This document shows, one piece after another, positions 32,327 to 33,914 of a DNA stretch of 64,000 bases (within the stretch, counting starts at the first letter, position 1; every line of letters starts with the position of its first letter). The position numbers were made by a program. The stretch is taken from NCBI RefSeq assembly GCF_003018115.1, contig NZ_CP027457.1. One strand, written 5' to 3'. The stretch is from Escherichia coli (lineage in GTDB: Bacteria; Pseudomonadota; Gammaproteobacteria; Enterobacterales; Enterobacteriaceae).

Positions 32327-33914
32327 TACGGTTCAGGCACAGGTTTGTAGGCCTGATAAGACGCGTAAGCGTCGCATCAGGCAATGGTGCTCGGATGCCG
32401 GATGCGGCGTGAACGCCTTATCCGGCCTACGAGATGAAGCGATGTTTTGGCCTTACGCGACCTTTTTTGCACGCTCTTCACGGCGTGCCAAATATTCAGC
32501 CACTGTTTCAATCCGTCCCAATTCTTCCTGGGTGCGCATGTTGTTTTCAACTTCCCAAAGATCAACTGCCGCCTGGAGGTTTAGCCAAAAATCGACTGTG
32601 GTATCAAAAACTTTCGCCAGACGGAATGCCATTTCAGTGGTGAGTTTACGATTATTATTGATCAGTGTACTGACGCTATTACGATGAACATGCAGCAACT
32701 CTACTAACTCATTGATTTTCAAAGCGATCTGTTCCGGATATTCATAGAGAAGAATATCTCCGGGTGTCGTCGGTTTTCTTGTTGCCTGTTTCATAGTTTT
32801 TAACTGTTGCTTCCCTGTGAATAGCGATACAAGAACATACTGAATCATACAAACACATTAAACAAGTCCCCAACTCCATTTGCGCCATCCCTCCCCGCGC
32901 GCTAGCATGATATTTCACAAAGGGAGGTCGTATGGATCTGTTGTACCGGGTAAAAACGCTTTGGGCCGCGCTGCGCGGTAATCATTACACCTGGCCTGCC
33001 ATCGATATCACCCTCCCCGGCAATCGCCATTTTCATCTGATTGGCAGTATTCATATGGGTAGCCACGATATGGCTCCCCTGCCCACCCGTTTGCTCAAAA
33101 AGCTCAAAAACGCCGATGCGCTGATCGTCGAGGCGGATGTTTCCACCAGCGATACGCCTTTTGCTAATTTGCCTACTTGCGAGGCGCTGGAAGAGCGCAT
33201 TAGCGAGGAGCAACTCCAAAATCTGCAGCACATTAGCCAGGAGATGGGCATTTCTCCGTCGCTCTTTTCTACTCAACCGCTGTGGCAAATCGCGATGGTT
33301 CTTCAGGCGACGCAGGCACAAAAACTGGGGCTGCGGGCAGAATACGGTATCGATTACCAGCTATTGCAGGCGGCGAAGCAACAACATAAACCCGTGATTG
33401 AACTGGAAGGGGCTGAAAACCAGATTGCCATGTTGCTCCAGCTCCCTGACAAAGGACTGGCGCTGCTGGACGATACGCTGACCCACTGGCATACCAACGC
33501 ACGGTTGCTGCAACAAATGATGAGCTGGTGGCTGAATGCGCCGCCGCAAAATAATGAAATAACGCTGCCCAATACGTTCAGTCAGTCGCTGTACGATGTG
33601 CTGATGCATCAGCGAAATCTCGCCTGGCGGGATAAATTACGCGCCATGCCGCCGGGGCGATATGTGGTCGCGGTCGGTGCACTACACCTGTATGGAGAAG
33701 GGAATTTACCGCAAATGTTGCGCTAAAAAAATGGCCAATATCGCTATTGGCCCGTCAAAGAGGAATTTCATTTTTTTATTATTATGCCGTCACTTTAAGC
33801 GACGGTGTAACTCGATTGTCGCTCAATCTCACCATCCTGCCAATACTCTTAGGCAAGATGACTCTTTTTTTTGGACCGCCATCAGGCGTATGCTTGCTTC
33901 GTTTTTTTGTTTAA

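What the first reader, a model, noticed from the sequence alone, without database searches (positions are those of the whole stretch)
33725..33808. sRNA ChiX lies between ybaP and ybaK, overlapping the ybaP stop
The minus-strand sequence matches ChiX end to end as I recall it, including its terminator hairpin and U-tail. The RNA 3' end overlaps the ybaP stop codon on the opposite strand, so the hairpin may terminate both transcripts. It would be missed by any protein-only annotation of this window.
Basis: established knowledge. Interest (0 to 1): 0.3.

Follow-up and report, generated by a model that had tools for sequence, protein, structure and literature searches.

The report
Known E. coli small RNA ChiX
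This is the well-known 84-base regulatory RNA gene chiX (also called sroB, micM or rybC), sitting where it does in nearly every E. coli genome, so the call is correct but ordinary.

Summary
Rfam's sroB model (RF00368, the ChiX family) matches window 33725..33808 on the minus strand end to end, at 82.1 bits against a gathering score of 44 (E = 1.8e-10). The 84 bases and the promoter are identical to the curated chiX gene (b4585) of E. coli K-12. ybaP (32932..33726, +) converges on it and ybaK (33930..34409, +) diverges from it. The ybaP TAA stop (33724..33726) shares 2 bases with the last two U of the ChiX tail, as in the K-12 annotation. Published Term-seq places the ChiX 3' end at exactly that base.

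The parts are all present: promoter-like hexamers, a 5' stem-loop, an A-rich Hfq-binding linker, a seed, and a terminator hairpin with a U7 tail. The seed is perfectly complementary over 12 bases to the chiP leader and to the chbB-chbC spacer.

I found the same ybaK-chiX-ybaP arrangement in 14 other Enterobacterales loci. The stop/tail overlap is kept in 13 of the 15 sequences, window included.

On the ybaP strand the hairpin is followed by the seed complement, not a T run, and no 3' end is reported there. A collision-type mechanism cannot be excluded.

Novelty: already known.

The parts
33838..33843 (-). chiX promoter, -35-like hexamer TTGGCA
   Evidence: The consensus scan gives TTGGCA, a 17-base spacer and GACAAT, 9 of 12 matches. 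TTGGC is kept in 11 of the 15 upstream regions printed. Its function here is inferred.
33815..33820 (-). chiX promoter, -10-like hexamer GACAAT, ending 7 bases upstream of the annotated 5' end (33808)
   Evidence: GCGACAAT is kept in 12 of the 15 upstream regions. The whole upstream region is identical to K-12.
33725..33808 (-). ChiX (SroB/MicM/RybC) small RNA, 84 nt
   Evidence: Rfam RF00368 at 82.1 bits, full length. 100% identical to K-12 chiX b4585. Term-seq places the 3' end at K-12 507287, which is window 33725, in three growth conditions (PMC7815308 suppl. 1).
33787..33805 (-). 5' stem-loop (RNA nt 4-22, 8 base pairs)
   Evidence: Minimum-energy and centroid folds agree. A hairpin of different sequence (-6.9 to -14.8 kcal/mol) sits at the same place in 12 of 15 sequences, window included. 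It is weak or absent in the Rahnella, Serratia and Pantoea sequences.
33766..33785 (-). Unpaired A-rich linker AUAAUAAUAAAAAAAUGAAA carrying AAN repeats (RNA nt 24-43)
   Evidence: Read from the sequence. ChiX is a class II sRNA that uses AAN motifs to bind the distal face of Hfq (PMC7987339). Binding in this strain is inferred.
33751..33764 (-). Seed UCCUCUUUGACGGG (RNA nt 45-58)
   Evidence: RNA nt 45-56 are perfectly complementary to CGUCAAAGAGGA in the K-12 chiP leader. RNA nt 47-58 are perfectly complementary to CCCGUCAAAGAG in the chbB-chbC spacer. A 15-base complement of the seed lies 4-6 bases upstream of the chiP ATG in three other species.
33733..33752 (-). Terminator hairpin GGCCAAUAGCGAUAUUGGCC (8 pairs, 4-base loop)
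   Evidence: Terminator scan, fold and consensus structure over 15 sequences. One pair changes on both sides, A-U to G-C, in Rahnella and Pantoea.
33725..33731 (-). U7 tail. Its last two U (33725-33726) are the complement of the two A of the ybaP stop codon
   Evidence: The poly-U tail is the binding site for the proximal face of Hfq (PMC7987339).
32932..33726 (+). ybaP (TraB/GumN family protein, 264 aa), convergent with chiX; TAA stop at 33724..33726
   Evidence: ORF list; annotation of the identical stretch in RefSeq genomes and in K-12.
33930..34409 (+). ybaK (Cys-tRNA(Pro)/Cys-tRNA(Cys) deacylase, 159 aa), divergent from chiX

Best explanation
Window 33725..33808 (minus strand) is the chiX gene. 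A sigma-70-type promoter (TTGGCA, 17 bases, GACAAT) starts an 84-nt RNA at 33808. An intrinsic terminator (8-bp GC-ended hairpin plus U7) ends it at 33725.

The RNA is an Hfq-dependent, trans-acting, class II small RNA. Its U tail and A-rich AAN linker hold it on Hfq. Its single-stranded seed UCCUCUUUGACGGG pairs with the Shine-Dalgarno region of the chitoporin mRNA chiP and silences it. When chitobiose induces the chb operon, the chbB-chbC spacer pairs with the same seed and drives ChiX decay, which relieves the repression. The chiP-leader fragment ChiZ is a second sponge.

Shown here: the sequence, structure, position, complementarities and conservation. Taken from the K-12 literature: expression, 3'-end position, Hfq binding and the regulatory outcome. 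These are inferred for this strain because the gene is identical.

The 2-base overlap with the ybaP stop is a conserved consequence of ybaP ending exactly at the foot of the ChiX terminator.
For: - **Family match:** Rfam RF00368, full length, 82.1 bits against a gathering score of 44.
- **Identity:** 100% identical to curated K-12 chiX, promoter included.
- **Signals:** promoter-like and terminator-like sites on the minus strand only. The fold shows two hairpins and an open seed, z = -3.88.
- **Pairing:** 12-base perfect complementarity to the chiP leader and to the chbB-chbC spacer of K-12. The chbBC duplex energy was matched or beaten by 1 of 500 shuffles.
- **Target side in other species:** a 15-base seed complement lies just upstream of the chiP ATG in Yersinia artesiana, Enterobacter sp. 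Ag1 and an Enterobacteriaceae MAG.
- **Orthologues:** 14 loci score 61-89 bits, all with ybaK-chiX-ybaP synteny. There is one compensatory change in the terminator stem, and the 5' hairpin is kept with unrelated sequences.
- **Within E. coli:** present in 5422 of 5426 complete genomes.
- **Experiments in K-12:**
  - The Term-seq 3' end is at 507287(+), with very high scores (PMC7815308 suppl. 1).
  - ChiX-chiP pairing was shown by compensatory mutations, with chbBC and ChiZ as sponges (PMC7815308).
  - Class II behaviour, AAN motifs and dependence on the Hfq proximal face are documented (PMC7987339).
Against: Nothing argues against the identification. The limits are these:
- No expression data exist for the strain the window comes from.
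- The chiP and chb targets lie outside the window, so I took them from K-12.
- I selected the orthologues with an exact 15-mer from the seed, so seed invariance among them is by construction and is not evidence.
- The ChiX:chiP-leader duplex energy from plain duplexfold was only modestly better than shuffles (31 of 500 as good). The 12-base perfect match is the meaningful figure.
Confidence: 0.97

Rival explanations
1. In addition to ending ChiX, the same hairpin (33733..33752) stops ybaP transcription coming from the other side, so it is a bidirectional terminator. Two versions exist. In (a) it is a classical intrinsic terminator in both directions. In (b) it is a pause and collision site, where ybaP polymerases stall at the hairpin and are removed by head-on collision with the heavy chiX traffic.
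For: - The gene pair is convergent, with the hairpin immediately after the ybaP stop.
- On the ybaP strand an A7 run precedes the hairpin. In E. coli it can pair with a U7 run 20 bases downstream to extend the structure, followed by UUAUUAUUAU. This appears in the minimum-energy fold only, not the centroid.
- chiX is very highly transcribed (Term-seq scores of 4.5e5 to 9.6e5).
- A collision model has been published in which a hairpin that is a poor intrinsic terminator still defines bidirectional termination between convergent E. coli genes, more efficiently for highly expressed pairs (bioRxiv 10.1101/2022.10.23.513370).
Against: - **Version (a):** on the ybaP strand the stem is followed by CGTCAAAG, 1 T in 8. 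This sequence is the seed complement and cannot drift. It holds in the window and, apart from one base, in all 14 orthologues. The scan calls no plus-strand terminator there.
- **Both versions:**
  - The curated K-12 Term-seq tables list no 3' end on the ybaP strand in or next to chiX in any of three conditions.
  - No Rho-dependent region is listed on that strand at ybaP.
  - Absence could reflect low ybaP expression.
  - The SEnd-seq dataset that defines collision-type terminators could not be consulted.
Confidence: 0.15
2. ybaP transcripts are not stopped at the hairpin. They read through the chiX gene and promoter, giving a ybaP-ybaK co-transcript. Its spacer is a perfect 84-base antisense to ChiX. 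This would create transcriptional interference with chiX, or a cis-encoded ChiX sponge.
For: - No canonical terminator lies on the plus strand after ybaP. The first terminator-like plus-strand site is a weak 5-bp hairpin at 33883..33896, just before ybaK.
- No plus-strand sigma-70-like promoter was found between ybaP and ybaK.
- ybaP and ybaK are co-oriented and only 203 bases apart.
- The arrangement is conserved in 14 other Enterobacterales loci.
Against: - There is no direct evidence for such a transcript.
- The SMRT-Cappable-seq supplements hold no entry for ybaP, ybaK or chiX.
- Nine sRNAs including ChiX showed no significant expression differences between the conditions tested (bioRxiv 10.1101/2024.06.20.599902), which argues against strong interference.
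- The promoter scan is a crude consensus search, so a ybaK promoter may simply have been missed.
Confidence: 0.12
3. There is no independent RNA gene. The hairpin is only the 3' end of ybaP, and the resemblance to ChiX is incidental.
For: A RIL-seq annotation pipeline does label reads from this place 'ybaP.EST3UTR', and its authors had to reassign them to ChiX by hand (PMC10954441).
Against: - The U run follows the hairpin on the minus strand only.
- The Rfam match is full length at E = 1.8e-10.
- The sequence is identical to a curated, experimentally studied gene.
- The Term-seq 3' end is on the chiX strand.
Confidence: 0.01

Closest known systems
ChiX (= SroB, MicM, RybC), Rfam RF00368, E. 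coli K-12 gene chiX b4585
   Same: Everything testable matches: 84 of 84 bases, the promoter region, the ybaK/ybaP flanks, the 2-base overlap with the ybaP stop, the two hairpins, the AAN linker, the seed and the U7 tail.
   Different: Nothing in the RNA. The host strain is not K-12: there is one substitution in the neighbouring ybaP codons, and the 401-base stretch is identical to O157:H7, O26, O103, O111 and O145 genomes.
ChiX orthologues of other Enterobacterales (Citrobacter, Enterobacter, Pluralibacter, Superficieibacter, Rahnella, Serratia, Pantoea)
   Same: Same synteny, same seed, same terminator hairpin, and ybaP ending in the A run complementary to the U tail.
   Different: - The 5' hairpin has unrelated sequences and is weak or absent in the Rahnella, Serratia and Pantoea sequences.
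- The linker is 2-5 bases shorter in most.
- Pantoea uses TGA, 1 base clear of the RNA end.
Class II Hfq-dependent sRNAs such as MgrR
   Same: An AAN-rich single-stranded stretch plus a U-tailed terminator, which gives binding to the distal and proximal faces of Hfq (PMC7987339).
   Different: Different seed, targets and locus. ChiX showed no significant expression differences across the conditions tested and is controlled by sponge RNAs, not by a regulated promoter.
Bidirectional terminators between convergent E. coli genes (Ju et al. 2019; the ynaJ-uspE model terminator)
   Same: A convergent pair sharing one hairpin at the gene boundary.
   Different: Here one direction is a strong classical intrinsic terminator and the other has no U tract at all. 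No 3' ends are reported on the second strand.

Membership tests
ChiX / SroB (Rfam RF00368) | Covariance-model score at or above the curated gathering score, over the full model | tested here: met
   82.1 bits against 44; model positions 1-83 of 83; E = 1.8e-10.
ChiX / SroB (Rfam RF00368) | Located between ybaK (divergent) and ybaP (convergent) | tested here: met
   ORFs and annotation. The review table gives the same flanks (PMC3384567). The arrangement holds in 14 orthologous loci.
ChiX / SroB (Rfam RF00368) | Single-stranded seed complementary to the chiP (ybfM) Shine-Dalgarno region | tested here: met
   12 contiguous Watson-Crick pairs, ChiX nt 45-56 with CGUCAAAGAGGA, ending 7 bases before the K-12 chiP AUG. 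The seed is unpaired in the centroid fold. The target was taken from K-12 because it is not in the window.
ChiX / SroB (Rfam RF00368) | Same seed complementary to the chbB-chbC intergenic decoy | tested here: met
   12 contiguous pairs, ChiX nt 47-58 with CCCGUCAAAGAG, plus a second 7-bp helix. The duplex energy of -37.8 kcal/mol was matched or beaten by 1 of 500 shuffles.
ChiX / SroB (Rfam RF00368) | Rho-independent terminator with U tail, and AAN repeats (class II Hfq binding determinants) | tested here: met
   Hairpin plus AUUUUUUU. The linker AUAAUAAUAAAAAAAUGAAA is read from the sequence. The roles of these motifs come from PMC7987339.
ChiX / SroB (Rfam RF00368) | Expressed as an ~84-nt Hfq-bound RNA that represses chiP | not testable with these tools
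   Shown in K-12 only: Term-seq 3' end at 507287, and genetics summarised in PMC7815308. Inferred for this strain from sequence identity.
Bidirectional intrinsic terminator | GC-rich hairpin followed by a U tract on both strands | tested here: not met
   The minus strand has 7 T in the 8 bases after the stem. The plus strand has CGTCAAAG, 1 T in 8. The scan calls only the minus strand.
Bidirectional intrinsic terminator | Mapped RNA 3' ends on both strands at the hairpin | tested here: inconclusive
   The curated K-12 Term-seq tables list only the chiX-strand end. ybaP may be too weakly expressed to be called.
Collision-type bidirectional termination (Ju 2019; Wang 2023) | Convergent transcription units whose 3' ends overlap at a hairpin, with termination that depends on the opposing promoter | not testable with these tools
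   The geometry is met and the model is described.

The most novel reading that the evidence does not exclude
The exact abutment of the ybaP stop codon with the ChiX U tail, kept from Escherichia to Serratia and Rahnella (13 of 15 sequences, window included), may be functional and not just compact gene packing. One version is that the ChiX terminator region acts as a collision or pause site that defines the ybaP 3' end. The other is that ybaP read-through transcripts, which would carry a perfect 84-base anti-ChiX sequence, modulate ChiX output. In the reverse direction, the roughly 1.5% of ChiX transcripts that read through run antisense into ybaP, and Rho limits them.
Probability: 0.12. Interest if true: 0.35.

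Novelty: already known. Interest (0 to 1): 0.07.

Why it matters
It matters mainly for annotation quality. Automated RefSeq annotation of otherwise identical genomes leaves this gene out, and at least one interactome pipeline files its reads under a ybaP 3' UTR. A scan that recovers it from raw sequence at the exact coordinates is doing its job.

Biologically, ChiX is one of the best-understood Hfq-dependent small RNAs: silencing of the chitoporin gene, relieved by target-mimic sponges. Finding it in its usual place adds nothing new.

The one loose end is what happens to ybaP transcription where it meets a very busy convergent sRNA gene. That is a minor question about transcription-unit boundaries.

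Tried and rejected
- **Collection scan with too short a pattern.** That was too short: it hit the 120-locus limit, mostly chance matches in unrelated phyla. Only 17 loci were Enterobacterales. Of these, 14 held ChiX and 3 turned out to be the chiP leader on the opposite strand. Seed conservation among these orthologues is therefore circular.
- **Consensus structure.** RNAalifold on the MAFFT alignment recovered only the terminator stem, because MAFFT misaligned the variable 5' hairpin. I folded each sequence singly instead.
- **Duplex energies.** Plain duplexfold ignores intramolecular structure and gave inflated, poorly discriminating energies for the chiP leader (31 of 500 shuffles as good). 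I rely on the contiguous perfect matches.
- **Experimental evidence on the ybaP 3' end.**
  - 'ChiX' plus 'bidirectional terminator' returned only an unrelated use of a synthetic terminator.
  - The SMRT-Cappable-seq supplements have no ybaP, ybaK or chiX entries.
  - The SEnd-seq paper (Ju et al. 2019, PMC6814526) is not held.
- **Rejected reading.** I considered that the hairpin is merely the ybaP terminator and rejected it. The U tract is on the wrong strand for that.

Full report
**1. The observation**

A scan of the whole window against Rfam 15 at gathering thresholds returns RF00368 'sroB RNA' at 33725..33808 on the minus strand. The match scores 82.1 bits against a gathering score of 44, with E = 1.8e-10. 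It covers model positions 1-83 of 83 and is not truncated. SroB, RybC, MicM and ChiX are names for one RNA, flanked by ybaK and ybaP (review table in PMC3384567).

The curated K-12 MG1655 record annotates 'small regulatory RNA ChiX' (chiX, b4585) at 507204..507287(+). ybaK lies at 506603..507082(-) and ybaP at 507286..508080(-). Aligning 251 bases of the window's minus strand with K-12 gives one difference, inside ybaP. The 84 bases of the RNA and the 122 aligned bases upstream are identical.

In the window, ybaP is the ORF 32932..33726(+) and ybaK is 33930..34409(+). The ybaP TAA occupies 33724..33726 and shares 33725-33726 with the ChiX 3' end. This is the same 2-base overlap as in K-12.

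**2. Anatomy (minus strand)**

| Part | Window coordinates | RNA nt | Evidence |
|---|---|---|---|
| -35-like TTGGCA | 33843..33838 | – | |
| -10-like GACAAT (17-base spacer, ends 7 bases before the 5' end) | 33820..33815 | – | |
| 5' hairpin, 8 bp | 33805..33787 | 4-22 | |
| Open A-rich stretch AUAAUAAUAAAAAAAUGAAA | 33785..33766 | 24-43 | |
| Seed UCCUCUUUGACGGG | 33764..33751 | 45-58 | |
| Terminator hairpin GGCCAAUAGCGAUAUUGGCC | 33752..33733 | 57-76 | |
| A then U7 tail | 33732..33725 | 77-84 | |

The predicted fold has a minimum free energy of -24.1 kcal/mol. Dinucleotide shuffles average -12.85 +/- 2.9, so z = -3.88.

**3. Evidence for the mechanism**

The targets lie outside the window, so I took them from K-12.

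- ChiX nt 45-56 are perfectly complementary over 12 bases to CGUCAAAGAGGA in the chiP leader. That site spans the Shine-Dalgarno sequence and ends 7 bases before the AUG.
- ChiX nt 47-58 are perfectly complementary to CCCGUCAAAGAG in the chbB-chbC spacer, and a further 7-bp helix lies next to it.

These are the published interactions. ChiX-chiP pairing was established with compensatory mutations. The chbBC spacer and the chiP-leader fragment ChiZ both sponge ChiX and promote its decay (PMC7815308).

ChiX is the standard example of a class II sRNA. [quoted passage not shown] Term-seq in K-12 places a very strong 3' end at 507287(+), which is window 33725, in all three conditions. The authors classify it 'primary chiX, antisense ybaP' (PMC7815308 suppl. 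1).

So the sequence, structure and complementarities are shown here. Expression, Hfq binding and the regulatory outcome are taken from K-12 and inferred for this strain because the gene is identical.

**4. Conservation**

The 84-mer occurs once in 5422 of 5426 complete E. coli genomes, at 99% identity or more in 5011. A scan of one genome per species with a 15-mer from the seed gave mostly chance hits. It did include 17 Enterobacterales loci.

Fourteen of these carry an sroB match of 61-89 bits. They come from Citrobacter, Enterobacter, E. coli, E. albertii, Superficieibacter, Pluralibacter, Rahnella, Serratia, Pantoea and unnamed Enterobacteriaceae. All 14 have ybaK upstream and divergent, and ybaP downstream and convergent.

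- The terminator stem has one pair changed on both sides, A-U to G-C, in Rahnella and Pantoea.
- The 5' hairpin is kept with quite different sequences in 12 of 15 sequences, window included.
- Seed invariance in this set is by construction and counts for nothing.

The other three loci are the target, not the sRNA. The reverse complement of the seed 15-mer lies 4-6 bases upstream of the chiP start codon in Enterobacter sp. Ag1, an Enterobacteriaceae MAG and Yersinia artesiana. The ORFs there are 86%, 79% and 68% identical to K-12 ChiP. Enterobacter sp. Ag1 supplied both partners, which is independent comparative support for the pairing.

**5. The overlap and the 'terminates both transcripts' idea**

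Across the 15 sequences, the ybaP stop is TAA overlapping the Rfam-defined ChiX end by 2 bases in 13. The overlap is 1 base in E. asburiae. In Pantoea the stop is TGA, 1 base clear of the RNA end. YbaP's C-terminal residues differ among species, yet the ORF always runs to the foot of the terminator, using the T and the first two A of the run complementary to the U tail.

As a terminator for ybaP, however, the hairpin lacks the defining U tract.

- On the ybaP strand the stem is followed by CGTCAAAGAGGAATTT in the window. All 14 orthologues have the same sequence apart from one base.
- That sequence is the seed complement and is not free to change.
- The scan calls no plus-strand terminator there.
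- The curated Term-seq tables list no 3' end on the ybaP strand at or within chiX, and no Rho-dependent region on that strand at ybaP.

The E. coli minimum-energy fold of the ybaP-sense RNA extends the hairpin by pairing A7 with a downstream U7, followed by UUAUUAUUAU. This is absent from the centroid fold. Citrobacter and Enterobacter do not have the U7 run.

A published model holds that hairpins which are poor intrinsic terminators can still fix bidirectional termination between convergent E. coli genes, through pausing and polymerase collisions, more efficiently at high traffic. chiX is very heavily transcribed, so this version cannot be excluded. The SEnd-seq data that would settle it were not available, and the SMRT-Cappable-seq tables do not mention these genes.

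In the other direction, DirectRNA-seq with and without bicyclomycin reports a Rho-dependent region at 507468(+), 181 bases past the ChiX end and antisense in ybaP. Coverage was 1492 upstream and 22 downstream without the drug, and 2100 and 115 with it. So roughly 1.5% of chiX transcription escapes the hairpin, and Rho limits it.

**6. Comparison with what is known, and verdict**

Every testable defining feature of ChiX is met, and the gene is identical to the curated one.

Its remark about protein-only annotation is borne out. The RefSeq/PGAP record of strain E2865, identical over the 401 bases compared, lists nothing between ybaP and ybaK. One RIL-seq pipeline labels these reads 'ybaP.EST3UTR'.

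The bidirectional-terminator aside fails the test for a classical intrinsic terminator and is otherwise untested. The finding is a correct re-discovery of a well-studied gene. Novelty: already known. Interest: low.

Noticed in passing
L045:1653-1667, L066:6706-6720, L044:1828-1842 (all minus strand): Three Enterobacterales matches to the ChiX seed 15-mer are not ChiX. They are the chiP leader on the other strand: GTCAAAGAGGAATTT lies 4-6 bases upstream of the chiP ATG, giving 15-base perfect complementarity to ChiX in Enterobacter sp. Ag1, an Enterobacteriaceae MAG and Yersinia artesiana. That is longer than the 12 bases in E. coli K-12.
   Followed up: yes
window 33724-33731 and the equivalent site in 14 loci (L010, L018, L026, L037, L042, L046, L049, L052, L064, L067, L077, L096, L105, L117): The ybaP stop codon is built from the T and the first two A of the run complementary to the ChiX U tail. 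This is so in 13 of 15 sequences, from Escherichia to Serratia and Rahnella, even though YbaP's last residues differ. Pantoea (TGA, 1 base clear) and E. asburiae (1-base overlap) are the exceptions.
   Followed up: yes
window about 33544 (K-12 507468, + strand there, which is minus in the window), inside ybaP: Published DirectRNA-seq with and without bicyclomycin lists a Rho-dependent termination region 181 bases downstream of the ChiX 3' end, antisense to ybaP. Downstream coverage is about 1.5% of upstream without the drug and about 5.5% with it. So a small read-through fraction of ChiX runs antisense into ybaP (PMC7815308 suppl. 2).
   Followed up: partly
window 32148-32427 and 39488-39565: There are three tandem matches to Rfam naRNA4 (RF02564) at about 101-base spacing between copA and ybaQ; two of the three score on both strands. 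A fourth copy lies at 39488-39565. The same model also matches in the E. coli locus L117. K-12 Term-seq lists 'orphan' 3' ends in the equivalent copA-ybaQ repeats.
   Followed up: no
window 47488-47552 (minus strand): The dnaX programmed -1 ribosomal frameshifting element (Rfam RF00382) matches at 96.8 bits, full length. It is a known element in its expected gene.
   Followed up: no
window 33883-33905 (plus strand): A weak terminator-like site (5-bp stem CAGGC/GCTTG, then CTTCGTTTTT) lies between the chiX promoter and the ybaK start. No plus-strand sigma-70-like promoter was found between ybaP and ybaK. Where ybaK transcription starts is therefore unclear from the sequence.
   Followed up: partly
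window 32453-32848 (minus strand): The ybaQ reading frame is open for 131 codons from the first ATG, but ybaQ is annotated as 342 bases including the stop (113 codons) in K-12 and in strain E2865. The annotated start is internal to the longest ORF.
   Followed up: no
E. coli genome search results: Two of the 5422 matches to the chiX region lie on records labelled as plasmids, and 4 of 5426 complete genomes have no match. I inspected none of these.
   Followed up: no
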